From the IMG/VR virus record IMGVR_UViG_3300025711_000006: a stretch of 33,771 bases of DNA. One strand, given 5' to 3'. Both the position numbers and the translations under genes were made by a program. Shown here one piece after another: positions 2,014 through 31,571 of the stretch. This DNA comes from a virus. Its lineage: Duplodnaviria; Heunggongvirae; Uroviricota; Caudoviricetes. Below the pieces are notes generated by a model that saw only the letters and a program-made list of their open reading frames with translations, did not search any database and was not told where the DNA came from. Within the stretch, counting starts at the first letter, position 1; each line of letters starts with the position of its first letter.

Positions 2014-2042
2014 CTTACGTTCTTACGGACTTACGATCTTAC
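2014..2042 (-). repeat. 4x GTAAG at exact 8-nt period in the leader of the coiled-coil gene
   Basis: Plus-strand cttac at 2014, 2022, 2030, 2038. Confidence 0.85.
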
Positions 2043-2071
2043 TGTTGCCGCTTCGGCAAACTTGAGACGCC

Positions 2072-2099
2072 ATAATACACGATTCTCATGCCCGGTCAA
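2072..2099 (-). promoter_or_regulatory. sigma70-like promoter for the coiled-coil/ncRNA/tRNA operon
   Basis: TTGACC (2099-2094), 16 nt, TATTAT (2077-2072), followed by a 5' hairpin TTGCCG/CGGCAA (2045-2059). Confidence 0.65.
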
Positions 2100-2189
2100 T
2101 AGGGTAAATGAAAAAAGTGTAAGAGAAAATCGCGCTTAGTGTACGAGAAAACGTGAACTAAGGCCAGACAAAACCGGATCAAGTCAGCG

Positions 2190-2218
2190 GTTATACCACG
2201 AAAGTTCCGGTTTGTCAA
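2190..2218 (-). promoter_or_regulatory. sigma70-like promoter (second, upstream)
   Basis: TTGACA (2218-2213), 17 nt, TGG-TATAAC (2195-2190). Confidence 0.7.
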
Positions 2219-2228
2219 TAGCCATTAG

Positions 2229-2525
2229 CTAATTTCTTTCAATCTCGATGCGGGCCATCTGGCAGTGGGGGCGTCCGTCCCTCCGACTTTCCATGATGGC
2301 CAGTGTCTTGAGCACAGCCACTACCGTGTTGTGCTCATCCTCGAATACACCCCCCTGTTCAAGTTGCTGCAAGCTCATCTCCGTGACCTGTGCTGCTTCC
2401 GCGAATTGAGTAGGGGTAAGCCCTAGCTTCTTTCTCCGTTCGCCTACCTGACCGCCGATATCCATGCGGGTATCCTGGCTTTCTGTAGCGAAGTCCCTTA
2501 CTGCCTCTCTATGTGCCGATGGCAT
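2229..2525 (-). CDS. XRE/Cro-like helix-turn-helix protein
   Basis: IGGQVGERRKKLGLTPTQFAEAAQVTEMSLQQLEQG matches the XRE HTH pattern. ATG 2525 has a GGGGAG RBS; an alternative start is 2465. Confidence 0.75.
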   Translation of the reverse strand: MPSAHREAVRDFATESQDTRMDIGGQVGERRKKLGLTPTQFAEAAQVTEMSLQQLEQGGVFEDEHNTVVAVLKTLAIMESRRDGRPHCQMARIEIERN

Positions 2526-2589
2526 TACAACTCCCCGAAACTACTTCACTGTGGTTCGATGCTCGGCACTTCCTTACAGACTTCCTGTA

Positions 2590-3036
2590 TTACGCGGCGT
2601 CCTTAGTGGTGCGAGGTGCTTGTGATATTGCTGCGTTGTCTGCGACTTCCAGGGCTAGAAAATGCTCGTCAAAACTTTCAGCCCTTTCTTCGTAAAGCTC
2701 AACCACCATCCAGCGTCCGTCAGGCATCTTCTGGATAGTGCTTACTGCTCGGCCTTGCCTCTCCACTACCTGCAAGGAGGTGGGCAGTGCTTGCTTGGGG
2801 CTTCGGCGCCCTTTCTGCATTGCGGCACTTTCGGCAACCCTTTTTGCTACTGCATAACTTGGTAATTCGTCATGGATGATCTTTTTATACACCTCCACCA
2901 CTGTATATTTACCGTCAGGCATTTTCATAATCGTACTTACCGCACGACTAGACTTGTAGCATATCCTCAGCCCGAGTTGCTTATCTGCAATTTTAATCAC
3001 GGGCTTAGCGAGAATACTCTCTGCTGTTTTCGTCAT
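2590..3036 (-). CDS. hypothetical protein with an internally duplicated ~45-aa domain
   Basis: RAVSTIMKMPDGKYTVVEVY (aa 31) and RAVSTIQKMPDGRWMVVELY (aa 96). Confidence 0.75.
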   Translation of the reverse strand: MTKTAESILAKPVIKIADKQLGLRICYKSSRAVSTIMKMPDGKYTVVEVYKKIIHDELPSYAVAKRVAESAAMQKGRRSPKQALPTSLQVVERQGRAVSTIQKMPDGRWMVVELYEERAESFDEHFLALEVADNAAISQAPRTTKDAA

Positions 3037-3113
3037 TTGATCGTCAACCTCATTAATCGAATAGCACTGATTAAGCGGCCAGCATACACCGCCATCATCT
3101 AGAGTTGGTGGCG

Positions 3114-3142
3114 ATTGTACGGAAGTGAGCGAGTTTTCACAA
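3114..3142 (-). promoter_or_regulatory. possible promoter for the 2590-3036 gene
   Basis: TTGTGA, 17 nt, TACAAT, followed by an 8-bp hairpin (CGCCATCA/TGGTGGCG on the plus strand). Confidence 0.45.
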
Positions 3143-3167
3143 ATTGGCTATTTCTATGGTGCGCACA

Positions 3168-3368
3168 CTACGCGATAGAAGTATCAGACTTTTGCTGTTC
3201 ACGCAAGTACTTGTTGACGGTCCTACAGCCCTCGGCCAGCGTGTGGGCGGTTTCTAGGTAGGGGCGGGCTTCTTCGTTGCTCTCTTCGATGCAGACGCGG
3301 CAACGGCCACTGGCGGGCATAACGTCTGTGAGGCCGTGGACTGGGCACACGGCTAGGTAGGCTTCCAT
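3168..3368 (-). CDS. small putative Zn-ribbon protein (66 aa)
   Basis: ATG 3368 with CCAGGAG RBS; CPVHG...CRVC motif. Confidence 0.65.
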   Translation of the reverse strand: MEAYLAVCPVHGLTDVMPASGRCRVCIEESNEEARPYLETAHTLAEGCRTVNKYLREQQKSDTSIA

Positions 3369-3447
3369 GCGGACTCCTGGGGGATGAGTTGGTGGGGTGG
3401 CTAGTGCCACGGGGGAGGGGCTCTATTAAGGCTTGCGCCTGCGCGCT

Positions 3448-3574
3448 TATAGAATTCTTAATAGAGTAAAAGAATAGAGGTAAAGAATAGAATTCTTAAT
3501 AGAGTTATATAATAGAAGAGATAAGTAATAGAGTAGTTAAATAATAGAGTACTTAATAGAATTACTTAATAGAG
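3448..3574 (+). repeat. AT-rich array of 10 (A/T)ATAGA(G/A) direct repeats; putative replication origin
   Basis: ATAGA at 3449, 3461, 3474, 3487, 3499, 3512, 3528, 3544, 3556, 3569, plus an inverted copy at 3421-3428. Lies between divergent transcription units. Confidence 0.8.
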
Positions 3575-3602
3575 TTATTAATTCTAAGTTAAAGGTCAAC
3601 TG

Positions 3603-3630
3603 ACCTTAACACGTTTTTCCCTGCTGTCAA
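3603..3630 (-). promoter_or_regulatory. possible leftward promoter
   Basis: TTGACA (3630-3625), 16 nt, TGT-TAAGGT. Confidence 0.4.
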
Positions 3631-3712
3631 GGGCCATAGTGCCACCATGCTTAAAATAATAAAATAAACAGGGGATAGACGGGGAGTGTACGAGATTTTC
3701 TATTTTGGGTAG

Positions 3713-3740
3713 TTGACTCTGCTCCGCTCGCTGCTACGAT
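3713..3740 (+). promoter_or_regulatory. sigma70-like promoter for the rightward arm
   Basis: TTGACT (3713-3718), 16 nt, TGC-TACGAT (3735-3740), with AT-rich upstream sequence. Confidence 0.65.
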
Positions 3741-3757
3741 GGCTCCCCAGCAACACT

Positions 3758-3793
3758 GTAAGGACGTAAGACGGTAATGAACGTAAGTGTAAG
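3758..3793 (+). repeat. GTAAG/GTAAT array (spacing 8,8,9,6)
   Basis: Copies at 3758, 3766, 3774, 3783, 3789. Confidence 0.7.
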
Positions 3794-4094
3794 AGAAACC
3801 ACCCCCGCCTACACAGAGCAGATGAATAGCCTGGAGGCAGCAGGGGTTCGCATCACCATGGTGGAGTTTGAGCAGTTCGCAGACTTCGAATTTGAGCCTC
3901 CTGCAACGTTCTTCACCCGCTCTGCGATGGGGCAGTACTACTTCTACCATACCCGTGCCAGGGCGAAGGCCCAGGAAGCGTGTGATGACCTCTTTGGGAA
4001 GGGCCGGTACACGGTCAACGCCTCGAAGATCCAGAAGGGCAAGGGCGGGCTTACCTGCACCGGAACCCAGACACGGCGGGGGCAGAAGCGATGA
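3777..4094 (+). CDS. hypothetical protein with a basic C-terminal tail
   Basis: First ORF after the promoter; ATGA overlap with the next gene. Start uncertain (3777 or 3822). Confidence 0.7.
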   Translation: MNVSVRETTPAYTEQMNSLEAAGVRITMVEFEQFADFEFEPPATFFTRSAMGQYYFYHTRARAKAQEACDDLFGKGRYTVNASKIQKGKGGLTCTGTQTRRGQKR

Positions 4095-4423
4095 TGATGC
4101 CTGATGAAGCGGTACGGAAATGCAAGGGGTTCCCTCACCACTTCGTCACCGAGGATGGCCGGGTTTGGAGCGCTCGCAGCGGTCGATATCTGACCCCTAC
4201 GTGCATCACCCCTCGACCGGAATACCCCGACCAGCAGTACCTTCGGGTGAAGCTGGCTGGCAAGGCCCGCTACGTGCATAAGCTGGTAGCTGATGTGTGG
4301 ATGGAAGCGCCTGAAGAGGCTTCCAGGGTGAGGGTTCTAGACCGGTTGAGCTTGGCCCCGAACGCAGGCAATCTTGCCTGGGAAAGTTACAAGGATATTG
4401 CCCCGCCTAATGTAAGTCGGTAA
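4091..4423 (+). CDS. NUMOD4/HNH_3-like protein, probably nuclease-dead
   Basis: GFPHHFVTEDGRVWS (NUMOD4-like), YVHKLVA and NAGNLAW present. The expected VxH motif reads VRVLD. Confidence 0.7.
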   Translation: MMMPDEAVRKCKGFPHHFVTEDGRVWSARSGRYLTPTCITPRPEYPDQQYLRVKLAGKARYVHKLVADVWMEAPEEASRVRVLDRLSLAPNAGNLAWESYKDIAPPNVSR

Positions 4424-4448
4424 GAACGTAAGACGGTAAGGAAGTAAG
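4412..4448 (+). repeat. 5x GTAAG at exact 8-nt period
   Basis: Copies at 4412, 4420, 4428, 4436, 4444; ATG at 4452. Confidence 0.9.
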
Positions 4449-4451
4449 ACA

Positions 4452-4841
4452 ATGAAATTCATCTCTGCTGAGTTCGAGCGGTTCGTAGCTGAATACTATG
4501 TAGGGAAGTCCCGGTCTGCTATTGAGCGGGATATCCCCTGGAAGCTCAGCCTCATGAGTTTCCGTAACATGATGAGAGCGACGGTGTGTCCATACACAGG
4601 CGTGCTGATGACAAAGCCGAACCTGTCCACACCGAAGCCTACGGATATCACGATTGACCGCATCGACAACACCAAGGGTTATATCCCAGGGAACGTCATG
4701 GCGATTAGTCGTATGGCGAATAACTTCAAGAGCATTTTCGAGAACCCGAAGTACCCGCTCGATATGGGAACAGCAACTGTTGCATTGTCCCGTATGAACA
4801 AGCGAGTGACCAAGGCTAAGGACATTGCTGCGAAGAAATAA
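4452..4841 (+). CDS. His-Me finger/HNH-like endonuclease-family protein
   Basis: CPYTG...TIDRIDNTKGYIPGNV...ANNFKS resembles the phage DRIDxxKGY-type nuclease motif. Confidence 0.65.
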   Translation: MKFISAEFERFVAEYYVGKSRSAIERDIPWKLSLMSFRNMMRATVCPYTGVLMTKPNLSTPKPTDITIDRIDNTKGYIPGNVMAISRMANNFKSIFENPKYPLDMGTATVALSRMNKRVTKAKDIAAKK

Positions 4842-4884
4842 ACGGTGGGAATGACTCCCGCTACGTTGCAATACATGGAGCAGT

Positions 4885-6335: not shown

Positions 6336-6341
6336 TTGTAC

Positions 6342-6361: not shown

Positions 6362-6380
6362 AATTTAGGACTGATGAGTA

Positions 6381-6761: not shown

Positions 6762-6978
6762 ACTAATTTCTCGTTCCAGGCACGTTAGGCTGCTGTCCGG
6801 TGATATGCCTGTGCTACTTCAGGCAGATGATGAAGGCAACTCTTACACATATGCCGAGGGTGTGGGTACTTGCTACGTGACCGACGACCTGCAAACCACC
6901 TTTGATAACTTGGCCGAGGCTGAAGAGTACGGGCTGTATGAAGAAGACCTGACCCAGGTTCTAGTGATCTACCCATGA
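6748..6978 (+). CDS. small acidic hypothetical protein
   Basis: Overlaps both neighbours in operon fashion. Confidence 0.65.
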   Translation: MRASELISRSRHVRLLSGDMPVLLQADDEGNSYTYAEGVGTCYVTDDLQTTFDNLAEAEEYGLYEEDLTQVLVIYP

Positions 6979-7463
6979 GGCTGAAGCATATGCTGGCCTA
7001 CCTTGAGTGTGCTGAAGTATTCGCCAAGTGTAGTGTCGGGCAACGGTTGAAAGTGGGTACGGTCATTGTCAAGGGCAACAGGATCATCTCTTGTGGGTAC
7101 AACGCTTTACCAGAGCATCTGGATGGCCCCCTGGAGGATTCCAGCGGCAATACGAAGGCCGAGGTAAGGCACAGCGAGAAGAACGCTCTGATGGGCCTTG
7201 TCCGGTCCTCTGAGAGCGCTAAGGGTGCAATGATGTTCTGCACCCACTCATGCTGCTACCTATGCGCTGTAGACATTGTGGACGCCGGTATTGAGCGTTT
7301 TGTGTTCCGCAACTTCTACCGCGATGATGCAGGGATACAGCACCTGATGAAGGCCGGTGTGGAAGTCTTCTTAGCGGTTGGCGATAAGCTCACGCTGTTG
7401 AAGTTGCAAGACTTCGAACCTATGTCGCCTCGCTGCAAAGAGTCTTGCAACTGCGCAATGTAA
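6975..7463 (+). CDS. dCMP deaminase
   Basis: ISCGYN, HSEKNAL (HxE) and CCYLCA (PCxxC-like) zinc motifs. Confidence 0.9.
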   Translation: MRLKHMLAYLECAEVFAKCSVGQRLKVGTVIVKGNRIISCGYNALPEHLDGPLEDSSGNTKAEVRHSEKNALMGLVRSSESAKGAMMFCTHSCCYLCAVDIVDAGIERFVFRNFYRDDAGIQHLMKAGVEVFLAVGDKLTLLKLQDFEPMSPRCKESCNCAM

Positions 7464-7476
7464 GTAAGGAAGGAAT

Positions 7477-8046
7477 ATGTTTCGCCGGGCTAATTTGCAC
7501 TTCTATGCAATGGCCCTGGTCATTGCCCTGGTAATGCACCCTTGCAATTGGGCCCCAGAGCCCGAACGCAAAGAGAGCGTCCCGGTAGAGCTGAAACACG
7601 TTGAGGCACCAAAGCCAAAGGCCGTGGCCATCGAGCTTACCGATGCTTCCAGGCAGCGCCGCTGCAAGGCGAGCCGGGAATGCGCAAAGATGGCTGAGGC
7701 CCTGGTGTACGAAGCCAGGGGCGAATCCCTCATGGGGGCTGTAGCAGTTGGCTATGTAATTGTTGAACGGACGAAGAACCCCACCCGCTGGCCTAAGACG
7801 GTGAGAGGGGTTATCTCCCAGAAAGACCAGTTCTCATATATCGGTAAGCGGCAGAAAGTAAAGCCAAAGCCGGAAGATTGGGAAAGGGCGTATATAACAA
7901 GTTACCAGATTCTCCATGGGGAGGTTAAGAACCCCATCGGACAATCTGACCATTACCACACGTTGAAAGTAAGACCTAAGTGGGCGAAGAAGATGCAATA
8001 CGTCGCCACTGTAGGCAGTCATAAATTTTACAGGGATATCAAATGA
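7477..8046 (+). CDS. SleB-like cell wall hydrolase (Hydrolase_2) with N-terminal hydrophobic anchor
   Basis: ALVYEARGES, AVGYVIVER, VISQKDQFS, HYH, PKWA, HKFY. Confidence 0.88.
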   Translation: MFRRANLHFYAMALVIALVMHPCNWAPEPERKESVPVELKHVEAPKPKAVAIELTDASRQRRCKASRECAKMAEALVYEARGESLMGAVAVGYVIVERTKNPTRWPKTVRGVISQKDQFSYIGKRQKVKPKPEDWERAYITSYQILHGEVKNPIGQSDHYHTLKVRPKWAKKMQYVATVGSHKFYRDIK

Positions 8047-8315
8047 GCGTCATTGTCGCACTTGCCATCGAAAGCAATATTAGCCTCTCCAACTGCATTG
8101 TTGTAGCTGATAATCCAGACGATGCAGTAGAGAAACTAATCGCTGGCCTTGAGATGTTCCAGGGCGAAGAGATTTGCCTGATTTGTGCGGATGTTCTGCG
8201 TAGCCCCACACTCGATGGGCAGCAAGCAGAAGAGTTTCGCCGCACAGTCGAAGTCCTCTTTGAAGAGTCCGTGCCAGAGTTGTTCACCGCAGGCTACTTC
8301 GCGGAGGAAGAGTAA
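8043..8315 (+). CDS. hypothetical acidic protein
   Basis: ATGA-coupled ORF in the operon. Confidence 0.65.
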   Translation: MSVIVALAIESNISLSNCIVVADNPDDAVEKLIAGLEMFQGEEICLICADVLRSPTLDGQQAEEFRRTVEVLFEESVPELFTAGYFAEEE

Positions 8316-8524
8316 TGGGCGAAATTCACGTAAAACTCACTCCGCTCGATGTAGACGGGAAACTGCTGCAAGTCGGTGATCGTGTTGCATTCTGCCTGGG
8401 CGGGAAGGGCACGGAAATGCGACTAGGCGAAGTAATCAAGGTCACGGCTAAGCAAGTGCTGATCCAGCACCGTGGTAAGAATCAGACCACAGCACGCGCC
8501 TTCGACGCAGTTGCCAAGGTGTGA
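8315..8524 (+). CDS. small SH3/KOW-like hypothetical protein
   Basis: DVDGKLLQVGDRVAF...GEVIKVT pattern; TAATG coupling. Confidence 0.65.
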   Translation: MGEIHVKLTPLDVDGKLLQVGDRVAFCLGGKGTEMRLGEVIKVTAKQVLIQHRGKNQTTARAFDAVAKV

Positions 8525-12647: not shown

Positions 12648-13491
12648 ATACCGTATCGGAGCCTCTACTTGCCATGTATCGGTAAGTAAGTTCCCTGGCG
12701 GTGAAGTGAAGGCCGATATTAATGTCGGCAGCACTAATCCAAGTCCAGACACAAGAGCAATCCGTGTTGACGCCTCACTACAAACCAGTGACGACATTAT
12801 TGCACTGCTGTTGACTGTGGATGCACTCCGCCGCCACTTCCCACGGGCTGAGATGGACCTGTGGATGCCGTATATGCCGTATGCTCGCCAGGACCGCCCG
12901 TGCGTTAATGGCGAAGCTCTAAGTATGGCCGTTATGGGCAACCTGATTAATTCGTGCGGCTTTAGTACCGTACTGACTCTGGATGCCCATAGCGATGTTG
13001 CACCCGCAGTAATTAAGAACTGCGAAAACATGCCGCAGGCAAATATCTTCAAAAAGATCGTTGACAACTTTGCGGATTACTATATTGTAGCGCCGGACGC
13101 AGGGGCTTATAAGAAAGCACATAAACTTGCGAACTATCTGGGCGCCAAGGGCGTCATCTGTGCAAACAAAGTACGCAACGTTGCTACCGGCAAGATTGAA
13201 GACACTGTAGTCTCTGATGATGTTGAGGGTTTGAACCTGCTGGTCGCTGATGATATCTGCGACGGCGGTAGAACTTTCACTGAGCTGGCCACCCTGTTGC
13301 GAGCCAAGAAGTGTGCAGCGTTGAAGTTGGTGGTGACTCACGGCTTGTTTACTAAGGGCCTGGAAGTACTGACCGATGAAGGTATGTACGACAAAGTTTA
13401 CACCACCAACTCATATCACACAGACGCCGCTGGCAATACCGACCAATTCGGTATGGTCAACGAAAAGGTCGAGTGGATCACTGTTATCTAA
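12640..13491 (+). CDS. prs: ribose-phosphate pyrophosphokinase-like protein (Adps-like)
   Basis: KFPGGE, PYMPYARQDR, DAHS, VAPDAGA, DDICDGGRT, VTHGLF. ATG 12640 with GGAGG RBS. Confidence 0.9.
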   Translation: MIKYRIGASTCHVSVSKFPGGEVKADINVGSTNPSPDTRAIRVDASLQTSDDIIALLLTVDALRRHFPRAEMDLWMPYMPYARQDRPCVNGEALSMAVMGNLINSCGFSTVLTLDAHSDVAPAVIKNCENMPQANIFKKIVDNFADYYIVAPDAGAYKKAHKLANYLGAKGVICANKVRNVATGKIEDTVVSDDVEGLNLLVADDICDGGRTFTELATLLRAKKCAALKLVVTHGLFTKGLEVLTDEGMYDKVYTTNSYHTDAAGNTDQFGMVNEKVEWITVI

Positions 13492-13520
13492 GTAAGTCCG
13501 TAAGTTAGTAAGTCAGGAAG
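13492..13520 (+). repeat. GTAAG x3 + GGAAG at exact 8-nt period
   Basis: Copies at 13492, 13500, 13508, 13516; TTG start at 13527. Confidence 0.8.
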
Positions 13521-15424: not shown

Positions 15425-15445
15425 CAATACCGTTAGGAAGTAAGT

Positions 15446-16072
15446 ATGGATAACTCGATTCGCAAGGATGCGCCCACTGTGCATGGTGTTGGTGTTAATG
15501 ATGCCGACTATGTAACCCACCCACGCGGCCAGGTGCGATGCAAGTATTACAGCACTTGGTCGCACATGCTGACCCGCTGCTATTGCCATAAATACCAATC
15601 TTCGAGGCCAACGTACATTGGAACTGAAGTTTGCCCAGAGTGGCTAGTATTTTCAAACTTCAAATCATGGATGGAGCAGCAGAACTGGGAAGGCAAACAG
15701 CTAGACAAAGACATAATCCGCCCTGGCAACAAGATATACAGCCCGGAGAACTGTGCATTTGTTAGCGCGGCAGTTAATAAGTTCGTAACTGATAGTGGAA
15801 AAACCCGAGGGGCTTGGCCCATCGGAGTTTACTACAGGCCAGATAGGCATAAGTTTAGGGCGATGGTTTGGAGAGCTGGACAAAAACGTCACCTTGGGTA
15901 TTTCGACACTCCAGAGGAAGCGCACCTTACTTGGGCGAAAGCCAAGCGCGAACAGTTAGATATTTTGATCGAGCAAGAACAGCCGCCTGAAATAGTAGCA
16001 AACGCGCTAATTGTGAAGTACGAACAGATACTGGAACACGCAGTAAAGGCATGTGATGGAACACAGCATTAA
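15446..16072 (+). CDS. free-standing HNH/AP2-type homing endonuclease-like protein
   Basis: YSTWSHMLTRC...EVCPEWLVFSNF...LDKDI..GNKIYSPENC, plus AP2-like GVYY...FRAMV...HLGYFDTPEEAH. Confidence 0.8.
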   Translation: MDNSIRKDAPTVHGVGVNDADYVTHPRGQVRCKYYSTWSHMLTRCYCHKYQSSRPTYIGTEVCPEWLVFSNFKSWMEQQNWEGKQLDKDIIRPGNKIYSPENCAFVSAAVNKFVTDSGKTRGAWPIGVYYRPDRHKFRAMVWRAGQKRHLGYFDTPEEAHLTWAKAKREQLDILIEQEQPPEIVANALIVKYEQILEHAVKACDGTQH

Positions 16073-17870
16073 GAAATACGGGCAGGTCATTGACCTGTCT
16101 GTTCCGGGCCATGTGGCATGCCCGGTTTGCCGGAAGAAGGGCCGAGATAATTCAGGGGATAACCTGGTTGTCTACGGCCTGGACTCTTCCGGTCGCCACA
16201 AAGGTTGTCGTTGTTTCGGGGAATGCGGATGGAGCTACCCCAGCGTGGAGTTCATGGAAGCGAACGGCGGTTATGAAGAAAGGGAAGAAGAGATATCAGT
16301 AGTGGGCAAGCCGTTTAACGAAGAGATTCACAATCAACTCAAGGAAGAGACTGGCGACCGAACCAAAGGTTATCGCGGTATCCGAGATGAAGTTTCAAAG
16401 AAGTTCATGTTGCGTTATCGCTACAGCGAGGAAGATGGCCAAGTAGATGAGGTTTACTACCCTTGCACTAAGAACTACAAGCTCACCGGCTACAAGATCC
16501 GCCGTCACCCGAAAGAGTTCCCCAACCCGTTCGGTGAGACTGGCCTTCAGTGTGACTTGTTTGGTCAAATCTGGTTTAAGACCTTCAATGGCACCGTACT
16601 TATCACTGGTGGTGAGCACGACGCCCTGGCGGCGTACCAGATGCTATTCGATGCACAGAAAAACAAGAACTTCGACCCGGTAGCCGTTGTATCCGGTACA
16701 AGCGGGGAGGGCAGTGTACATAAACAGGTCCAGGCCCAGTATGAGTTCTTCAACCAGTTCAAGAAGATCGTTATCTGCATGGATAACGATGAAGTTGGCC
16801 AGAAGGCCGTAGAGAAGATCGTTAAGGCTCTCCCACGCGGCAAAGTCTTCGTTATGAAGATGCGGAAGAAAGATCCTAACTCCTACATCTACGACAACGC
16901 TTCCGGTCGTGCTGTCCGAGCCGAACAGGACTTCATTAACGACTTCTGGAGCGCTCAGCCGCATACACCGGCAGGGGTATATGCCTCTACCGCGTTGAAA
17001 CAGGCCGCGATGGACCGCGCCGACCTGCCGATCATCAGCTTGCCTGAGTGTTTGGCCGGTGTAGCCGCCCTAAGTGGTGGTGGGATTGTAAAGCAAGAAA
17101 TCTTCCTGCTGCTGGCTAAAACCAGTATCGGTAAGACCACAGCAATGAGCGCCCTTACAGAGCATATGGCCCTGTATGAGCCTAACGAAGTTGTTGGCGT
17201 GCTCTCGCTGGAACAGGACCACGGTAAGTTCTCCTTGAACCTGCTTTCGTATCACCTGGGCAAAGCACTGCACCGTATGACCAAGGAAGAGCGTCAAGCC
17301 TACTTGGAAGAGAACGACGGCAAAATTGACAAGCTGTACATGCGGGACGATGGATCGCCCACGCTGTATGTCTGCGACGACCGTGGCGCTACCTGGGATC
17401 AAATCAAAGAGAAAGTGCTGGAGATGATTATCGGTATGGGCGTGACCCTGCTGATTATCGACCCGTACTCTGACTTGCTATCGGGTATGAGCGTGAGCGA
17501 ACAGGAAGAAGTAGCAACGTGGATTAAGAAGATCATGAAAGAGTATGGCATTACTCCGATCATCGTTTCCCACGTTCGTAAGACAAGCAATGGTGGCAAG
17601 GATTCGCCACTGACTGAGGATGACGCCCAAGGTAGTTCGTTCCTCGTTAAAGCGTCTGGCCTAACTCTCTCTCTGGAGCGGGACAAGCAGAACCCGAACC
17701 CGATCTTGCGGAACAAAACTTCGGTGAACATCCTGAAGAACCGCGACTTCTCGGAGACTGGCCCAGCAGGCGGTATGTTCTATGACATTCCAACTGCACG
17801 CCTGCACGACTTTGACCGCTACATGGAAGTTAATCCACATCTAGCCGCACTATTGGAAGACGAAGAGTAA
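16053..17870 (+). CDS. primase-helicase (Zn finger + TOPRIM + DnaB-like)
   Basis: CPVC...C N-terminus, ITGGEHDALA, MDNDEVG, KDPN, Walker A AKTSIGKT, LLIIDP, SHVRK. Confidence 0.93.
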   Translation: MMEHSIKKYGQVIDLSVPGHVACPVCRKKGRDNSGDNLVVYGLDSSGRHKGCRCFGECGWSYPSVEFMEANGGYEEREEEISVVGKPFNEEIHNQLKEETGDRTKGYRGIRDEVSKKFMLRYRYSEEDGQVDEVYYPCTKNYKLTGYKIRRHPKEFPNPFGETGLQCDLFGQIWFKTFNGTVLITGGEHDALAAYQMLFDAQKNKNFDPVAVVSGTSGEGSVHKQVQAQYEFFNQFKKIVICMDNDEVGQKAVEKIVKALPRGKVFVMKMRKKDPNSYIYDNASGRAVRAEQDFINDFWSAQPHTPAGVYASTALKQAAMDRADLPIISLPECLAGVAALSGGGIVKQEIFLLLAKTSIGKTTAMSALTEHMALYEPNEVVGVLSLEQDHGKFSLNLLSYHLGKALHRMTKEERQAYLEENDGKIDKLYMRDDGSPTLYVCDDRGATWDQIKEKVLEMIIGMGVTLLIIDPYSDLLSGMSVSEQEEVATWIKKIMKEYGITPIIVSHVRKTSNGGKDSPLTEDDAQGSSFLVKASGLTLSLERDKQNPNPILRNKTSVNILKNRDFSETGPAGGMFYDIPTARLHDFDRYMEVNPHLAALLEDEE

Positions 17871-17879
17871 GGAAGTAAG

Positions 17880-21356: not shown

Positions 21357-21520
21357 TGGCTGGTTACATTGTTCACAACCCCTCCGCAGCATCGAAGTTT
21401 CAAGACGAACTTTATGGTTCGGGCATGCGCGTAGCTAACCCGACCGCAAAGAAGGCCCCCGATGGCCAAGTAGTGGTTCGCTGCACTGTTAGTGGCAAAG
21501 AATTCACTGTGAAAAAGTAA
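21356..21520 (+). CDS. small conserved-looking phage protein (54 aa, absent from the ORF track)
   Basis: TGATG coupling, AGGAAAGG upstream. Translation MAGYIVHNPSAASKFQDELYGSGMRVANP...RCTVSGKEFTVKK. Confidence 0.75.
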   Translation: MAGYIVHNPSAASKFQDELYGSGMRVANPTAKKAPDGQVVVRCTVSGKEFTVKK

Positions 21521-21569
21521 GACCGATAGATAGCAATACAGAAATCAAGTAAGCAAGTAATAGAGAAAG
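21517..21569 (+). repeat. degenerate 7-unit GNAA(G/T) array at exact 8-nt period
   Basis: GTAAG 21517, GATAG 21525, GCAAT 21533, GAAAT 21541, GTAAG 21549, GTAAT 21557, GAAAG 21565; ATG at 21578. Confidence 0.65.
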
Positions 21570-21577
21570 CAAATTAA

Positions 21578-22603
21578 ATGGCATTTAAGACAGTAGGAGC
21601 CCCTGCTGGGGGCAATAGCGAGTCCACAATTGACTTCGAAGCGATTAACCGTTATCGCGTAGAGGCCGCTGGGCTGCAAGATCGTGAAACTCTGGGGGGT
21701 CGTGTTGCAGCAGTAATCGACCTGGGCGTGCAGAAACAAGCGGACGCTGAAACTACCTTCACCGGTACTCCAGAAGAAGAAGAAGCTATCATGGCTGAAT
21801 ACCCTGATACTTACTTCAAAGATGGTATCGACCAAGATACCAAGAAAGAAGTTCGCCTGAAGTGCTGGCCACAAAAGCCAGTGCAGTGTGTGGTACTTGC
21901 AATTGACTTCGATGATATCATTGTCGATATGGCACAAGCCTACGGCGAGCCATCTGATCCGAAGCCTCTTCGCCTGTACACCGGCAACCAGTTCTTCATC
22001 CAAGGCCAGGGCATGGTAGTTGCACGCCCGACGCCTCTGCGTGTTGTGAACCTCGATAAGACCCGCAAAACCAAGCGTTGGTCCCTGGCTCAGAACAACA
22101 TGCTGCACAAGATGGCGGTTGCTGCGAAGCTCATCAAGGCCGACGAACCTTTCCTGCCTGACCGCATTGACGAACTACTGGGTAAAGCGTTCCAGTTTGA
22201 CGCCCAGGTTTACTTCAAGCAGTCCGGCCAGAAGGAATACTTCACCGAGTACCTGCGCTTTGCATCAGCCCTGGGCCGTGGCCAGACAGTTCCTGAGCTG
22301 TCCACCACCCCTTACATCGTTCAATTCGATGAAGAGAACCCAGACTCTGCAATCACTGAGCTACGCCAACACGTTATCAACACCATCAAGGGTGCTGAGA
22401 ACTACAAAGGCTCCGTGATCGAGAAGCAGATTAACACTCTGCGTAAGCGTAAAGAGACTCAAGCGAGTGAAGGTGACGCTGATCCTGATCGTGAAGAAGA
22501 ACAGGAAGAGTCGAAGCCAACTCCGAAAGTTGCAGGCCGTAAGCCTTCTGCATCGAAGCGTGCAGAGATTACCCCAGCCGCTGATGGTGACACTCCCTGG
22601 TAA
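21578..22603 (+). CDS. conserved replication-region protein, candidate ssDNA-binding protein
   Basis: Lies between polymerase and exonuclease; flexible acidic tail ending ADGDTPW. The function is inferred. Confidence 0.8.
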   Translation: MAFKTVGAPAGGNSESTIDFEAINRYRVEAAGLQDRETLGGRVAAVIDLGVQKQADAETTFTGTPEEEEAIMAEYPDTYFKDGIDQDTKKEVRLKCWPQKPVQCVVLAIDFDDIIVDMAQAYGEPSDPKPLRLYTGNQFFIQGQGMVVARPTPLRVVNLDKTRKTKRWSLAQNNMLHKMAVAAKLIKADEPFLPDRIDELLGKAFQFDAQVYFKQSGQKEYFTEYLRFASALGRGQTVPELSTTPYIVQFDEENPDSAITELRQHVINTIKGAENYKGSVIEKQINTLRKRKETQASEGDADPDREEEQEESKPTPKVAGRKPSASKRAEITPAADGDTPW

Positions 22604-24856: not shown

Positions 24857-25182
24857 TGCAGAAGATGTATATCGCGGTTCTGGATGACGCACCAGATTAC
24901 ATGGTGCCCACCCTGGTAGCCCACAGTGCAATTAACGCGCACCGGTACTTCGAAGGTGATGCACGCTACCAAAACTGGTTGGCCAAGTCCTTCAAGAAGG
25001 TTGTTGTGCGAGTAGGGCGTAAGGAGTTCGATAAGATCGCAGCCCGCCTCATTGTGTGGAAGGGTCATGAGAACACCATTTGCGACGGTAAGCCTTCGTG
25101 CCTGGTTGTGCTGCCAATGGATCCGTATGAAGTACCGCCTCTGCTGAGCTTCGCCAAGCTATGGAAGCCCAAGGAACAATGA
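24856..25182 (+). CDS. peptidyl-tRNA hydrolase type 2 (Pth2)-like protein
   Basis: KMYIAV...LVAHSAI...WLAKSFKKVVVRV...LVVLP follows the PTH2 fold pattern. Confidence 0.6.
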   Translation: MQKMYIAVLDDAPDYMVPTLVAHSAINAHRYFEGDARYQNWLAKSFKKVVVRVGRKEFDKIAARLIVWKGHENTICDGKPSCLVVLPMDPYEVPPLLSFAKLWKPKEQ

Positions 25183-25976
25183 GTAAGAAGATTGTAGTTA
25201 TCGGGGATGTGCAGGTTAAGCCTGGGCAAGACCTTTCACATATCCGGCACATGGGCGAATACATTGCCGACAAGCAACCGGATGTAGTTGTAATTATCGG
25301 GGACTGGTGGGACTTCGAGTCGCTATCATCTTACGATAAAGGCAAGAAGAGTTTCGAGGGTCGCCGCCTGAAGGCTGATATCGAAGCAGGTAATCACGCC
25401 ATGGATATCTTGTTTGCTCCTATGCTGGCTCTCCAGAAGCGGCAAAAAGAGAACCGCAAGAAGGTCTACAAGCCTCGCCTAGTGTTCACCCACGGCAACC
25501 ATGAAGATCGCTTCGACCGCTTGGCTGATAATATGCCCGAGTTGGATGGATTTGTTGGCACAGAGACACTTTCGCTGGACAAATGGGGCTTTGAAGTGTA
25601 TGCTTTCCTTCAGCCAGTCGAGATTGAAGGTATCTTCTTCGTCCACTATCTCGCCAACCCCATGACTGGCAAGCCATACGGCGGTACTGCACTTAACCAG
25701 TTGAAAACGGTAGGGCGTAGTTTCGTTGTAGGCCACAAACAAACTCTCGATATCGCCATTCGCCCGACCATTGACGACAAGATGCAGTTCGCTGTTATCA
25801 ACGGCGCGTCTTATCCGCACGACGAAGGCTATAAAGGATTCCAGGGAAACAACCATTTCCGAGGCATCATTGTTCTCAATGAAGCAAAGGATGGCTTTGC
25901 CCTGCCCATGCCTGTATCGCTCCAGTATTTGAAAGAGCGCTACAGTAAAGTTAAAAGTAATTCCGTAAGTCAGTAA
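25179..25976 (+). CDS. metallophosphoesterase
   Basis: IGDVQ, IIGDWWD, GNHE, FVHY, VGHKQ. Confidence 0.85.
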   Translation: MSKKIVVIGDVQVKPGQDLSHIRHMGEYIADKQPDVVVIIGDWWDFESLSSYDKGKKSFEGRRLKADIEAGNHAMDILFAPMLALQKRQKENRKKVYKPRLVFTHGNHEDRFDRLADNMPELDGFVGTETLSLDKWGFEVYAFLQPVEIEGIFFVHYLANPMTGKPYGGTALNQLKTVGRSFVVGHKQTLDIAIRPTIDDKMQFAVINGASYPHDEGYKGFQGNNHFRGIIVLNEAKDGFALPMPVSLQYLKERYSKVKSNSVSQ

Positions 25977-25986
25977 GAAGAGTAAG
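25957..25986 (+). repeat. GTAAT/GTAAG array (spacing 8,8,9)
   Basis: Copies at 25957, 25965, 25973, 25982; ATG at 25990. Confidence 0.7.
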
Positions 25987-25989: not shown

Positions 25990-26535
25990 ATGACCATTCT
26001 GTTTCATATCCCGCGTGAGCCGGGGAACTACACCTATCGCCTTGATGGCAACACCGTAAGTACCGCAAACGGCGTTTATAGCCACGATTTCCCCCCAGAA
26101 ATGATTCTCGACCAGTTTGTCTCTGGCAATTGGGTGATCCTGGGAGAAGTAGACCTTGAAGAAAATAATGAACCTGATTGCAGCTATGGTGTTGCGTCTG
26201 AGCCTGAAGCTGAATCTGAAGTTGGCGGTGCAGTTGCATCCGATGGCGGTTCCAGCTCTTACTACGACATTGCCGTACCAGACTGGTTTATTGAGCGAGC
26301 AATCGAACGTGCCGTCACTGGTGGTACGGGTTACATCAAAACCGAAGAGCTGATTGAAGTCATCTTCAAGAACGACTTCGATGCCGGTAACGCCTTCAAG
26401 AGCCTGATTCGCCTGTGGGGTGCATTCAACGGCGCTGGTAAGGCTGGTAACTCCGTGAGCTACGACAAGCGGAAGATCGAATACAGCCTAGATAAGCTGG
26501 AACAGCGCTTCGAGCGCCAGGGGGAAGCAGAGTGA
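25990..26535 (+). CDS. DUF3310/SaV-like (putative nucleotide kinase-like) protein
   Basis: SDGGSSSYY...FDAGNAFKSLIR...GKAG...YDKRKI pattern. Family tentative. Confidence 0.65.
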   Translation: MTILFHIPREPGNYTYRLDGNTVSTANGVYSHDFPPEMILDQFVSGNWVILGEVDLEENNEPDCSYGVASEPEAESEVGGAVASDGGSSSYYDIAVPDWFIERAIERAVTGGTGYIKTEELIEVIFKNDFDAGNAFKSLIRLWGAFNGAGKAGNSVSYDKRKIEYSLDKLEQRFERQGEAE

Positions 26536-28067: not shown

Positions 28068-28070
28068 GCT

Positions 28071-30329: not shown

Positions 30330-30332
30330 GTT

Positions 30333-31349
30333 TTGAGCGTATTTAAAGAGAGCCAGTCATACCGGCCATTCACTTACTCATGGGCGGCTGACGCCGCCCA
30401 GCGTCACGCAATTGAGATGTTCTGGGATGTACACCAGATCAACTTGCAGGACGACATTCAGCAGTACTTCTCGAAAGAGGGCATGAAGACGGCTACCGTC
30501 TCTCACGACCAGAATAAGGGCTTGCTTGATGCTACCCTTTGCCTGTTTACGGAGATGGATAGCACTGTTGCGGGCGGGTACACTGAAGTACTCCCGTTCA
30601 TTAAGAACAATGAAATCCGCAACATGATGCTGACCTTCGCTGCCCGCGAAGTTACACACCAGCGAGCTTATGCCCTGGCAGCAGAAACCTTCGGCTTTAA
30701 CAACTCCGACTGGATTAAGTTTGCCCAGTACAAAGAGATGGTCGATAAGCTCGATGTAATGGCTGAAGATATGGTGCCTTTCGGGGCCCGTGATGAACTT
30801 CGTGCAGCCATCAAGCTTACACAGATCCTCCTGGGCGAGGGTGTTGGCCTGTTCGGTGCGTTCGCCACTCTGTTGAACATGAAGCGTTGCGGCATTATGA
30901 ACGGCTTCAACGATATCAACGAATGGTCGCTGAAGGATGAGCAAGAGCATGTAATCAACAACATCAGTGTCGTCAAGGAGATGCGTAACGACCTGACCGA
31001 AGTTGAACGCATGGCCCTGGAGTACATCACTCGCCGGTTTATCGACAAGTTCAAAGAGGCAGAGTATCGCTACCTTGAACTGGTATTCGAGATGGGTGGG
31101 GCCGAGGGTTTGACCCTGGCCGAGATGAAGGGTTATATCGACTACTTGTGCCAACTGCGTTTGTTCCAACTGGGGTATTGCCAATTGTCCGAAGTACCAG
31201 TTAACCCGCTGCCTTGGATGGAATGGTTGCTGGGTGCCAACAAGCACTCCAACTTCTTCGAGAAGAAGGTAACGGACTATGTTCACAAAGAGCTTCCAGG
31301 GGAGGTTAATTATAACCGCTACCTGCATATGCTACCGCGTGCAGCATGA
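30333..31349 (+). CDS. nrdB: class Ia ribonucleotide reductase beta subunit
   Basis: FTEMD, EVTHQRAY (radical Tyr present), EG..LF..F, DEQEH, NFFE. Confidence 0.95.
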   Translation: MSVFKESQSYRPFTYSWAADAAQRHAIEMFWDVHQINLQDDIQQYFSKEGMKTATVSHDQNKGLLDATLCLFTEMDSTVAGGYTEVLPFIKNNEIRNMMLTFAAREVTHQRAYALAAETFGFNNSDWIKFAQYKEMVDKLDVMAEDMVPFGARDELRAAIKLTQILLGEGVGLFGAFATLLNMKRCGIMNGFNDINEWSLKDEQEHVINNISVVKEMRNDLTEVERMALEYITRRFIDKFKEAEYRYLELVFEMGGAEGLTLAEMKGYIDYLCQLRLFQLGYCQLSEVPVNPLPWMEWLLGANKHSNFFEKKVTDYVHKELPGEVNYNRYLHMLPRAA

Positions 31350-31468
31350 TTACCTTACTTGATATGGCTGAGTGGACGCTTTACGCCTGGGATGCCTTAG
31401 TTGCCCGCTGTAGAGCAGATACATTGCGAATGGCCAAAACCTTACATATTCGCACGCCTCACGGATGA
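31346..31468 (+). CDS. possible 40-aa peptide
   Basis: ATGA-coupled to nrdB and ends just before the terminator (MITLLDMAEWTLYAWDAL...). Confidence 0.4.
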   Translation: MITLLDMAEWTLYAWDALVARCRADTLRMAKTLHIRTPHG

Positions 31469-31476
31469 GGCTTTAC

Positions 31477-31503
31477 GCCCCGCCTGGTGCGGGGCTTCTT
31501 TTT
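31477..31503 (+). terminator. Rho-independent terminator
   Basis: GCCCCGC-CTGGT-GCGGGGC followed by TTCTTTTT. Confidence 0.85.
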
Positions 31504-31517
31504 GCCTACGAAAAGGC

Positions 31518-31547
31518 TTGACACGGGGAGTGGTTTTCTCGTACACT
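31518..31547 (+). promoter_or_regulatory. sigma70-like promoter containing the TCTCGTACACT motif
   Basis: TTGACA (31518-31523), 18 nt, TACACT (31542-31547), immediately after the terminator. Confidence 0.6.
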
Positions 31548-31571
31548 TCCGCATGTAAGACGGTAATACCA

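What the first reader, a model, noticed from the sequence alone, without database searches (positions are those of the whole stretch)
2014..31567. GTAAG units with a strict 8-nt period in many 5' leaders
Seen, always on the sense strand just before a start codon: 2042/2034/2026/2018 (minus, 4 copies, 8-8-8); 3758-3793 (8,8,9,6); 4412-4448 (5 copies, 8-8-8-8); 13492-13520 (8-8-8); 15432/15440; 17867/17875; 21517-21569 (7 degenerate units, all 8 apart); 25957-25986 (8,8,9); 31555/31563; and a GGAAG/GTAAG pair at 2585/2577 (minus). An 8-nt period does not match the DNA helix but suits a multimer reading ssRNA, and the unit resembles the GTAAAG/GTAAC units of the ncRNA tract. Inference: a phage-wide translational regulon, with the ncRNA as a possible sponge. 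Alternatives: an 8-nt period places TAA in all three frames (a translational insulator), or TAAG is a partial Shine-Dalgarno/standby site. The 2014-2042 array has no upstream ORF to insulate.
Basis: partly seen in the sequence, partly recalled or inferred. Interest (0 to 1): 0.8.

Follow-up and report, generated by a model that had tools for sequence, protein, structure and literature searches.

The report
Periodic GTAAG rails in phage leaders
A small clade of 105-kb Pseudomonas-type phages has put rows of the word GTAAG, spaced exactly 8 bases apart, in front of about a dozen early and middle genes. These rows are strongly conserved and are not ordinary ribosome-binding sites, so something unidentified probably reads them to control translation.

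Summary
GTAAG pairs 8 nt apart occur 12 times in the window (0.15 expected) and 20 times in the 105-kb genome (0.44 expected). In an unbiased scan it is the top periodic 5-mer.

- **Position:** all arrays lie outside genes on the sense strand. They sit 0-30 nt before a start codon or overlap it. Seven begin at or supply the upstream stop codon; three or four sit at the 5' end of sigma70-type early transcripts.
- **Distribution:** two relatives (G002, L531) carry arrays at the same leaders. Six other relatives have none.
- **Conservation:** between G000 and G002, silent sites are 51% identical. Array cores are 73/73 identical and spacers 21/27. Unit number changes by whole units, so the arrays are selected, not neutral microsatellites.
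- **Not Shine-Dalgarno:** generic units pair with the 16S tail at only -1 to -2.6 kcal/mol.
- **Not the partition protein's sites:** they do not co-vary with the phage's 8-bp-periodic partition centromere.

My best reading (about 0.4) is an RNA-level operator rail for an unidentified single-strand-binding factor that controls translation. The rivals are a factor-free ribosome landing pad with three-frame stops, and a DNA operator for a ribbon-helix-helix-type protein.

The ncRNA-sponge and coiled-coil-protein ideas are not supported. An earlier scan note reports 8-bp GTAAG arrays in another ParA-bearing element.

The parts
2014..2042 (-). Four exact GTAAG units, 8-8-8, in the 5' UTR of the 205-aa helical protein gene (1379-1996, GTG start). 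AGGAAG, the real SD, lies at 2005-2010.
2045..2059 (-). Small hairpin (TTGCCG-AAG-CGGCAA) 3 nt upstream of the first unit. The 5' structure plus single-stranded tract resembles the layout of a standby site.
   Evidence: An array-less relative keeps a hairpin and SD here without units.
2072..2099 (-). Sigma70-like promoter TTGACC-16-TATTAT (10 of 12). It places the 2014-2042 array at about +23 to +51 of the transcript.
2569..2585 (-). GGAAG-TCT-GTAAG-GAAG pair about 45 nt upstream of the XRE-type HTH gene (2229-2525). Conserved in G002.
3713..3740 (+). Sigma70-like promoter TTGACT-16-TACGAT with a TG extension. Conserved in G001 and G002. The array starts about 11 nt after the predicted transcript start.
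3758..3793 (+). Array GTAAG, GTAAG, GTAAT, GTAAG, GTAAG with spacings 8, 8, 9, 6. The ATG of ORF 3777-4094 is formed by the GTAAT-G unit.
   Evidence: G002 and L531 have the same layout, and the gene call in L531 starts at that ATG.
4412..4448 (+). Five exact units, 8-8-8-8. The stop codon of ORF 4091-4423 is the TAA of unit 2. The ATG at 4452 of a 129-aa degenerate HNH-like protein follows the last unit by 3 nt, in register.
   Evidence: There are 4 units in G002 and 3 in L531, always ending GTAAGAC(A/C)ATG.
7460..7476 (+). GTAAGTAAGGAAGGAAT before the ATG at 7477 (cell-wall hydrolase). The first unit supplies the stop of ORF 6975-7463. This one is largely an ordinary SD.
13492..13520 (+). 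Three exact units plus GGAAG, 8-8-8. They fill the whole gap between the stop of the PRPP-synthetase-like gene (13489-13491) and the conserved TTG start of NAMPT (13527).
   Evidence: G002 has 4 units, L531 has 5, and G001 and L152 have 2 degenerate units.
15432..15444 (+). GTTAG-GAA-GTAAG before the ATG at 15446 of an HNH endonuclease gene that is absent from G001 and G002.
17867..17879 (+). Two units, GTAAG-GAA-GTAAG. The first supplies the primase/helicase stop and the second abuts the GTG start of DNA polymerase (17880). Identical in G002.
21517..21569 (+). Seven units in 8-nt register: 2 exact and 5 degenerate (GATAG, GCAAT, GAAAT, GTAAT, GAAAG). This is an A-rich 57-nt leader of the 341-aa gene 21578-22603. 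The first unit supplies the upstream stop.
25957..25986 (+). GTAAT, GTAAG, GTAAG, GTAAG with spacings 8, 8, 9. The stop of the metallophosphatase gene (25161-25976) lies in unit 3. ATG at 25990. No SD is detectable (best -2 kcal/mol).
   Evidence: G002 keeps the array but has a different downstream gene.
31518..31567 (+). Promoter TTGACA-18-TACACT (31518-31547), then GTAAG-ACG-GTAAT (31555-31567) at the extreme 5' end of the transcript. The GTG start at 31572 opens a GDIHG-motif phosphatase. There is no SD. This array occurs only in G000.

Best explanation
The GTAAG-N3 arrays are a lineage-specific cis element of the translation-initiation regions of early and middle mRNAs.

They are transcribed in the sense direction as purine-rich, weakly structured GUAAG-NNN tracts. 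Each tract starts either at the stop codon of the upstream gene or at the very 5' end of a sigma70-type early transcript. Each runs to within 0-30 nt of the next start codon, and sometimes into it.

Most likely they are operators. A row of identical 5-nt sites at a fixed 8-nt step lets a sequence-specific single-strand RNA-binding factor assemble side by side over the ribosome-loading zone. The factor could be phage- or host-encoded and is not yet identified. At least 14 genes in this genome would then be co-regulated at translation, and the number of units (2 to 7) would set each gene's affinity. This is the logic of T4 RegA and gp32 with a new kind of site.

Shown:
- the anatomy and the statistics;
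- the sense-only orientation;
- conservation against a half-saturated neutral background;
- variation by whole units;
- restriction to one clade;
- the units are not Shine-Dalgarno sequences.

Inferred:
- the arrays act as RNA;
- a dedicated reader exists;
- the effect is on translation.
For: 1. Sequence-specific selection. Four-fold degenerate sites between G000 and G002 are 51% identical (471 of 924). In the six arrays that keep their register, cores are 73/73 identical and spacers 21/27. All five core positions are kept, including G1 and G5. Neither a stop codon nor 16S pairing needs those two positions.
2. The period is kept through indels. The leader of the 129-aa gene has 5, 4 and 3 units in G000, G002 and L531, always ending 3 nt before the ATG. 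NAMPT has 4, 4 and 5.
3. Regulon-like distribution. About 10 of 14 leaders carry arrays in both G000 and G002. Arrays are also gained at single leaders, such as 31555 in G000 only. They are absent from G001, L152, L532-L534, phiPMW and G003 at the same genes; G004 has a single chance-level pair.
4. RNA-level anatomy.
   - 12 of 13 arrays in G000 are on the sense strand, 0-30 nt before a start. Nearly all arrays in G002 and L531 are placed the same way.
   - Orientation flips with the genes at the divergent promoter region, 2014-2042 (minus) against 3758-3793 (plus).
   - Start codons are embedded in units (GTAAT-G at 3777, and in L531).
   - Arrays sit inside operons where no promoter is seen, for example between primase and polymerase.
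5. The units are not SDs. Their energies are -0.9 to -2.6 kcal/mol, against -4 to -6 for the terminal GGAAG or AAGGAA units and -12.8 for a consensus SD.
6. Array leaders are more single-stranded than other leaders. The unpaired probability is 0.53 against 0.44, P = 0.001.
7. A precedent exists for unstructured, repeat-bearing translational operators that include the upstream UAA stop: RB69 RegA SELEX gave UAA triplets, and the gp32 operator has a 5' structure followed by UUAA(A) repeats (PMC3014915).
Against: - No reader was found. RegA, CsrA, Hfq, TRAP, CSD and S21 families are absent from G000, G001 and G002.
- The 35 genes shared by G000 and G002 but not G001 are almost all ORFans.
- No gene in the early region tracks array presence across seven relatives.
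- From my own knowledge, no known RNA-binding protein reads an 8-nt step, whereas 8-bp steps are known for DNA-binding ribbon-helix-helix proteins.
- Three or four arrays lie at +1 to +50 of promoters, where a DNA operator would also fit.
- The register between the last unit and the start codon is not fixed across genes (0-29 nt).
- There are no expression data.
Confidence: 0.4

Rival explanations
1. A factor-free translation module. The arrays are unstructured purine-rich spacers that act as a ribosome landing pad or standby site (30S and protein S1). For three or more units they also place a strong UAAG stop in all three frames just before the next start. Every incoming ribosome then terminates and can re-initiate. 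The period is a relic of growth by 8-nt tandem duplication.
For: - Seven intercistronic arrays in the window start at, abut or contain the upstream stop codon.
- Several array genes have no usable SD (25990, 31572, 3777), so something else must recruit ribosomes there.
- The 5' hairpin plus single-stranded tract at 2014-2059 matches the architecture of the S1-dependent tisB standby site (PMC6690012). Unstructured 5' tails do enhance initiation (PMC5934652).
- Array leaders are more open.
- G001 and L152 show a two-unit proto-form, GAAAGTCA-GGAAGACA. This suggests expansion from a stop-plus-SD seed.
Against: - It does not explain why all five core positions are 73/73 conserved while spacers drift.
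- It does not explain why indels keep the 8-nt register.
- Sister phages manage the same genes without arrays.
- The start regions behind arrays are not more structured than others (0.51 against 0.47 unpaired, not significant), so a standby rescue is not obviously needed.
- Promoter-proximal arrays have no upstream ORF to terminate.
- A 4-nt period would cover three frames more cheaply.
Confidence: 0.25
2. A DNA-level operator. A ribbon-helix-helix-type or similar protein binds the tandem 8-bp units as double-stranded DNA. It represses or blocks transcription of early and middle genes, for example while the phage is maintained as a plasmid.
For: - An 8-bp step is the known binding mode of ParG (PMC3130281) and of MetJ met-boxes (MetJ repressor: PMC2775130; the 8-bp tandem-box detail is from my own knowledge).
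- This genome has a ParA module whose centromere is 8-bp periodic and contains GTARRT units.
- Three or four arrays lie at +1 to +50 of sigma70-like promoters.
- An earlier scan note (e1-1980600, unchecked by me) reports 8-bp GTAAG/CTTAC arrays upstream of every transcription unit in another ParA/RHH-bearing element.
Against: - Orientation is sense-only in about 23 of 25 arrays in G000 and G002.
- Many arrays sit between cistrons, touching start codons, with no promoter nearby.
- The arrays do not follow the partition protein. Centromere boxes are GCGT/GAGT in G000 and GGGT in G001. They are GGGT/GGAT with CAAT spacers in G002. ParA is only 41% and 34% identical to G000's in G002 and G001. Yet the leader units are GTAAG in both G000 and G002.
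- There is no ParG or RHH_1 Pfam match in G000. This is inconclusive, because such proteins are short and diverse.
Confidence: 0.15
3. Target or decoy for an enzyme that recognises UAAG in single-stranded RNA. Candidates are an RNA ADP-ribosyltransferase or a sequence-specific endoribonuclease. Modification or cleavage in the untranslated leader would change mRNA stability without blocking elongation.
For: - The P. aeruginosa toxin RhsP2 binds UAAG motifs preferentially and ADP-ribosylates the 2'-OH there.
- A 6x GUAAGA cassette was locally stabilised by it (PMC13768812).
- The host of this phage group is Pseudomonas. A relative lies in a Pseudomonas sp. assembly and relatives carry an MvaT-like gene.
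- The phage carries NAD-salvage genes.
Against: - No ART family was detected in G000, G001 or G002.
- RhsP2 needs no periodicity.
- The genome has 730 TAAG words, so a few dozen in leaders are a poor decoy.
- The link rests on motif likeness only.
Confidence: 0.05
4. Neutral or selfish repeats. The arrays would be slippage-born octamer microsatellites, or recombination scars at junctions of mobile gene cassettes, with no function of their own.
For: - Unit number varies between relatives.
- Some arrays precede mobile HNH genes, or genes that differ between relatives (15446, 25990).
- Octamer tandem repeats with a GTAAG core are common in viral and bacterial DNA. Four-unit GTAAG arrays are no more frequent in IMG/VR than the permuted controls: 95 stretches against at least 120 each for GAATG and GATAG.
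Against: - The units are not identical copies, because the spacers differ within arrays.
- Cores are 73/73 conserved where neutral sites are 51% identical.
- Arrays persist at orthologous leaders in three genomes.
- They are sense-only and tied to start codons.
Confidence: 0.05

Closest known systems
T4/RB69 RegA translational operators (review PMC3014915)
   Same: - One phage factor represses about 30 early and middle mRNAs.
- It binds unstructured, A-rich sites at or just 5' of the start codon.
- RB69 RegA selects UAA-triplet repeats, and the upstream gene's UAA stop can be part of the site.
- Sites have graded affinities.
   Different: - No RegA homologue is present (PF01818).
- RegA sites have no fixed long period and no conserved 5-mer.
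- Here the word is GUAAG at an 8-nt step, in 2-7 copies.
T4 gene 32 autogenous operator (PMC3014915, PMC535899)
   Same: [quoted passage not shown] A single-strand-binding protein coats the tract cooperatively.
   Different: - It is a single autoregulated gene, not a dispersed set.
- Recognition is largely sequence-independent.
- Only one array here (2014-2059) has an adjacent 5' hairpin.
TRAP and HutP RNA targets (from my own knowledge)
   Same: Multimeric proteins read rows of short identical words, (G/U)AG, on single-stranded RNA at a fixed step.
   Different: - Their steps are 5-7 nt, not 8.
- They have single operons as targets.
- They control attenuation as well as translation.
- No TRAP homologue is present.
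ParG operator OF and centromere parH of TP228; MetJ met-boxes (PMC3130281, PMC2775130)
   Same: Tandem units at an 8-bp step, with variable copy number and conserved short boxes with drifting spacers. A ParA module with such a centromere exists in this very genome.
   Different: - These are read as double-stranded DNA, in either orientation, at promoters.
- Here the arrays are sense-only, abut start codons inside operons, and do not co-vary with the centromere boxes.
Ribosome standby sites (tisB, MS2 coat; PMC6690012, PMC5934652)
   Same: A single-stranded tract upstream of the start region, sometimes with a 5' structure, that pre-loads 30S subunits.
   Different: - Standby tracts need no particular sequence or period.
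- They serve structured start regions. The start regions here are not unusually structured.
PeSL cassettes of T4-type phages (Arbiol et al. 2010, PMC2839356; cited from an earlier scan note, not read by me)
   Same: Short, repeated regulatory modules precede many accessory early genes and mark junctions where gene content differs between relatives.
   Different: PeSLs are a promoter plus a stem-loop. The elements here are periodic, unstructured words and also precede core genes such as NAMPT and DNA polymerase.

Membership tests
Shine-Dalgarno sequence | Stable pairing with the 3' end of 16S rRNA, 5-10 nt before the start codon | tested here: not met
   Generic units (GTAAG plus TCA, ACG, TCC or AAC) give -0.9 to -2.6 kcal/mol. 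Only the terminal GGAAG or AAGGAA units reach -4 to -6, and a consensus SD gives -12.8. The leaders of 25990 and 31572 never exceed about -2.
RegA-type translational regulon | A RegA (PF01818) repressor encoded by the phage | tested here: not met
   Six-frame search of G000, G001 and G002 found no match. The tool's control genomes also gave no hit, so its sensitivity is unproven.
RegA-type translational regulon | Unstructured sites overlapping or just 5' of start codons of many early and middle genes | tested here: met
   12 of 13 arrays lie 0-30 nt before starts. Array leaders have a higher unpaired probability than others. No arrays occur in the structural gene block at 3-35 kb of the genome.
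gp32-type autogenous operator | A 5' pseudoknot or structure that nucleates cooperative coating of an unstructured repeat tract in the protein's own mRNA | tested here: inconclusive
   One array has a 5' hairpin (2045-2059). No SSB gene was identified; the 341-aa gene behind the 7-unit leader has no Pfam or PDB match.
RHH tandem operators (ParG OF/parH, MetJ) | Tandem units at an 8-bp step | tested here: met
RHH tandem operators (ParG OF/parH, MetJ) | A cognate RHH protein in the genome whose specificity co-varies with the sites | tested here: not met
   No PF09274 or PF01402 hit in G000. Centromere boxes differ between G000 and G002 while the leader units are the same.
RHH tandem operators (ParG OF/parH, MetJ) | Sites at promoters, working in either orientation | tested here: not met
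   Only 3-4 of about 14 arrays follow a promoter-like site. Orientation is sense-only.
Ribosome standby site | A single-stranded tract that serves a start region sequestered in structure | tested here: not met
   The tract is single-stranded, but start regions behind arrays are not more paired than others (0.51 against 0.47 unpaired, P = 0.11).
Neutral microsatellite / VNTR | Near-identical units and no conservation beyond the neutral rate | tested here: not met
   There are 18 different 8-mers among 30 units. Cores are 73/73 identical against 51% at four-fold sites.
TRAP/HutP-type RNA targets | NAG triplets at a 5-7-nt step, read by a ring protein of that family | tested here: not met
   The step is 8 nt. 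There is no PF02081 match in the three genomes. HutP was not searched.

The most novel reading that the evidence does not exclude
A clade of Pseudomonas phage-plasmids runs a phage-wide post-transcriptional regulon. An as yet unknown single-strand RNA-binding multimer reads GUAAG words at an 8-nt step laid over ribosome-loading zones. It is encoded by one of the ORFan genes or by the host. Copy number (2-7) sets a hierarchy of repression or activation. No described RNA-binding protein has this geometry.
Probability: 0.3. Interest if true: 0.8.

Novelty: new variant of a known kind. Interest (0 to 1): 0.6.

Why it matters
If the arrays are operators, they would define a new recognition geometry for bacterial or phage RNA-binding proteins: five bases read every eight. 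They would also give a compact, tunable and portable translational control module.

The natural series of 2 to 7 units, and the array-less sister phages, make a ready experimental design. A relative is present in a cultured Pseudomonas isolate's assembly.

Even under the plainer readings, the arrays are useful. They show how a phage lineage can rebuild a dozen ribosome-binding regions in parallel with one repeated word. They also warn annotators that these leaders lack classical SDs and use GTG or TTG starts.

Tried and rejected
1. **TAAG as multiple Shine-Dalgarno sites.** Rejected on duplex energies.
2. **The partition centromere-binding protein as reader.** Rejected because centromere boxes differ between G000, G001 and G002 while leader units do not.
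3. **The ncRNA tract at 1061-1368 as sponge.** It has no GTAAG and no 8-nt period.
4. **The 205-aa helical protein and the 129-aa HNH-like protein as lineage-specific readers.**
   - Both have homologues in array-less relatives.
   - PDB sequence searches and ESM Atlas look-ups gave no functional lead.
5. **Gene-content subtraction.**
   - 35 genes are shared by G000 and G002 but not G001, nearly all without Pfam families.
   - No gene in the early region tracks the arrays across seven relatives.
   - A 69-aa ORF (8315-8524) has a sub-threshold Phage_ProQ_C_like hit (16 bits against a cut-off of 27). It has no tblastn match in the array-bearing G002 but has one in the array-less L533.
6. **Six-frame family scans of G000, G001 and G002.** All were negative: RegA, CsrA, Hfq, S21, TRAP, CSD, two ADP-ribosyltransferase families, ParG and RHH_1.
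7. **Rfam.** It finds only the five tRNAs.
8. **Collection-wide scans.**
   - Four-unit GTAAG arrays in IMG/VR are mostly plain (GTAA)n or octamer microsatellites.
   - They are not more frequent than the permuted controls.
   - A pattern typical of this phage's units finds only G002 and one unrelated contig.
9. **Literature.** I found no description of such arrays in phage leaders.

Full report
**What the window is.** Positions 664-33771 are the reverse strand of the last 33 kb of a 105,402-bp IMG/VR phage record, G000. It carries:
- a tRNA cluster;
- a divergent early control region;
- replication and nucleotide-metabolism genes: PhoH-like ATPase, ligase, PRPP synthetase-like, NAMPT, primase/helicase, DNA polymerase and ribonucleotide reductase.

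The nearest cultured relative is Pseudomonas phage phiPMW, with NAMPT 58% identical. A relative's contig lies in a Pseudomonas sp. assembly, and relatives encode an MvaT-like protein. The host is therefore Pseudomonas or close to it. Earlier notes of this scan describe a ParA partition module and call the phage a probable phage-plasmid.

All listed arrays are at the stated coordinates; three are partly degenerate and I add one at 7460-7476.
- Same-strand GTAAG pairs 8 nt apart occur 12 times in the window and 20 times in the genome.
- From the observed GTAAG density I expect 0.15 and 0.44. Markov simulations never exceed 1.
- A scan of every 5-mer at spacings 5-14 puts GTAAG at 8 first.
- All 13 arrays with at least two exact units lie outside predicted genes. 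Twelve have a same-strand gene start from -2 to +29 nt after the last unit; the other lies in the partition centromere.
- None lies in the structural gene block at 3-35 kb of the genome.

**Anatomy.** The unit is an 8-mer, GTAAG-D-M-M. Position 8 is never T, and TCA is the commonest spacer. There are 18 different 8-mers among 30 units, so these are not identical copies. There are two settings.
- *Intercistronic.* The array fills the gap between two genes. In seven cases in the window the upstream stop codon is the TAA of a unit or abuts or precedes the first unit: gene ends 4423, 7463, 13491, 15424, 17870, 21520 and 25976.
- *Promoter-proximal.* Three arrays in the window follow sigma70-like promoters:
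  - TTGACC-16-TATTAT before 2014-2042 (minus);
  - TTGACT-16-TACGAT before 3758;
  - TTGACA-18-TACACT before 31555.

  They therefore sit at about +1 to +50 of early transcripts. The first also has a small hairpin 3 nt upstream.
- Arrays end 0-13 nt before the start in most cases. At 3777 the ATG is made by a GTAAT-G unit. Starts include TTG (NAMPT) and GTG (polymerase, 1996, 31572).

**The units are not Shine-Dalgarno sequences.** Duplex energies with the 16S 3' end are as follows.

| Sequence | Energy (kcal/mol) |
|---|---|
| Generic units | -0.9 to -2.6 |
| Terminal GGAAG or AAGGAA units | -4 to -6 |
| Consensus SD | -12.8 |

Where a real SD exists, it is the last or second-to-last unit. 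The leaders of 25990 and 31572 have none.

**Distribution among relatives.**

| Genome or locus | Relation to G000 | GTAAG pairs at 8 nt |
|---|---|---|
| G002 (107 kb) | primase 86% identical | 14, at the same leaders |
| L531 (20 kb of an ENA contig) | P0001 homologue 86% identical | 8, again at the same leaders |
| G001 | primase also 86% identical | 0 |
| L152, L532, L533, L534 | more distant relatives | 0 |
| phiPMW, G003 | more distant relatives | 0 |
| G004 | more distant relative | 1 |

G001 has no alternative periodic word in its leaders either. At the NAMPT leader, G001 and L152 keep a two-unit proto-form, GAAAGTCA-GGAAGACA. phiPMW has an unrelated leader there. The arrays therefore most likely expanded in the G000/G002/L531 lineage.

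**Selection.** Four-fold degenerate sites of four core genes are only 51% identical between G000 and G002 (471 of 924).
- In the six arrays that keep their register, cores are 73/73 identical and spacers 21/27.
- Length differences come in whole units. The leader of the 129-aa gene has 5, 4 and 3 units in G000, G002 and L531, always ending GTAAGAC(A/C)ATG. NAMPT has 4, 4 and 5.
- This rules out neutral microsatellites. It shows selection on the whole 5-mer and on the step.

**RNA or DNA?** An 8-bp step is the binding mode of ribbon-helix-helix proteins such as ParG and MetJ (PMC3130281, PMC2775130). This genome's partition centromere (44.5-45.5 kb) is 8-bp periodic, with GCGT/GAGT boxes and GTARRT-like units. 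An earlier scan note reports 8-bp GTAAG arrays in another ParA-bearing element (not checked by me). So the DNA reading is a serious rival. Four points count against it.
- Orientation is sense-only in about 23 of 25 arrays of G000 and G002.
- Arrays touch or contain start codons inside operons.
- Centromere boxes differ between G000, G001 and G002, and ParA is 41% and 34% identical. Yet the leader word is GTAAG in both G000 and G002.
- There is no ParG or RHH_1 match in G000.

**Search for a reader.** It failed.
- Known RNA-binder families are absent.
- The 35 genes shared by G000 and G002 but not G001 are nearly all ORFans.
There the helical protein's gene follows a promoter, a hairpin and an ordinary SD.
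- The ncRNA tract proposed as a sponge has no GTAAG and no 8-nt period.

**Reading.** I rank the explanations as follows.

| Explanation | Confidence |
|---|---|
| RNA-level operator rail for an unidentified cooperative single-strand binder, with RegA/gp32-like logic (PMC3014915) | 0.40 |
| Factor-free landing pad with three-frame stops | 0.25 |
| DNA operator for a ribbon-helix-helix-type protein | 0.15 |
| Target or decoy for a UAAG-specific RNA enzyme, prompted by RhsP2 of P. aeruginosa (PMC13768812) | 0.05 |
| Neutral repeat | 0.05 |

The remaining 0.10 is unassigned and covers explanations not considered here.

**Wider context.**
- Four-unit GTAAG arrays in IMG/VR are mostly plain microsatellites. 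They are not more frequent than the permuted controls.
- Some Bacteroidota genomes hold hundreds of variable-spacer GTAAGAYN arrays at gene ends, often paired as hairpins. The phage arrays are unpaired and lie in leaders, so I treat this as a separate phenomenon.

**Limits.**
- Gene calls are my own heuristic.
- Promoters are consensus matches only.

Noticed in passing
window 3460-3575: Nine AATAGA(G/A) words at 12-16 bp spacing form an AT-rich tract between the divergent early promoters (2072-2099 minus, 3713-3740 plus). It looks like an iteron or operator tract, perhaps an origin or the binding region of the neighbouring XRE-type HTH protein (2229-2525).
   Followed up: partly
G000:C1:44540-45460 (outside the window); G001 29.2-31.1 kb; G002 90.5-92.4 kb: The partition centromeres flanking ParA are 8-bp (4+4) periodic, but their boxes differ between relatives: GCGT/GAGT in G000, GGGT in G001, and GGGT/GGAT with CAAT spacers in G002. 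Specificity has been swapped.
   Followed up: partly
L173, L174, L179 and others (Danxiaibacter flavus); L186 (Saprospiraceae MAG): These Bacteroidota genomes hold hundreds of dispersed GTAAGAYN arrays at an 8-nt step with variable spacers: 523 and 240 three-unit matches, against 27 and 5 for the reversed control. In Danxiaibacter the arrays usually start 5-34 nt after a same-strand stop codon; arrays in other bacterial genomes of the same scan often face an inverted copy. This is a separate, genome-wide repeat family that deserves its own look.
   Followed up: partly
window 13527 (and L531, G001, G002, L152): NAMPT starts with a TTG that is conserved in five relatives, in the context CA(C/T)AATTGAAT. 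phiPMW uses ATG.
   Followed up: partly
window 15446-16072: This free-standing HNH endonuclease gene between NAMPT and primase is absent from G001 and G002. It is probably a recent mobile insertion that carries its own short GTTAG-GAA-GTAAG leader.
   Followed up: partly
window 1-663: The first 663 bases, including tRNA-Arg and tRNA-Phe, are not in the IMG/VR record G000. The source contig is longer than that record; the protein cluster of the 129-aa gene lists a 107,722-bp contig.
   Followed up: no
window 8315-8524: A 69-aa ORF has a sub-threshold match to Phage_ProQ_C_like (PF24203; 16 bits against a cut-off of 27). It could be a small RNA-chaperone-like protein, but it does not track the arrays.
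   Followed up: partly
G000:C1 about 54-61 kb (L118): A 5' UTR word CCTAGTAAGGCA, followed by AAGGAAG-type SDs, recurs before several ORFan genes. TATAG at 11-nt spacing is the second most periodic 5-mer of the genome. Both belong to the promoter-operator cassettes noted earlier by this scan.
   Followed up: no
L531-L534 (relatives), about 7-8.5 kb upstream of the 129-aa gene: All four relatives encode an MvaT_DBD protein, a Pseudomonas H-NS-like xenogeneic silencer.
   Followed up: no
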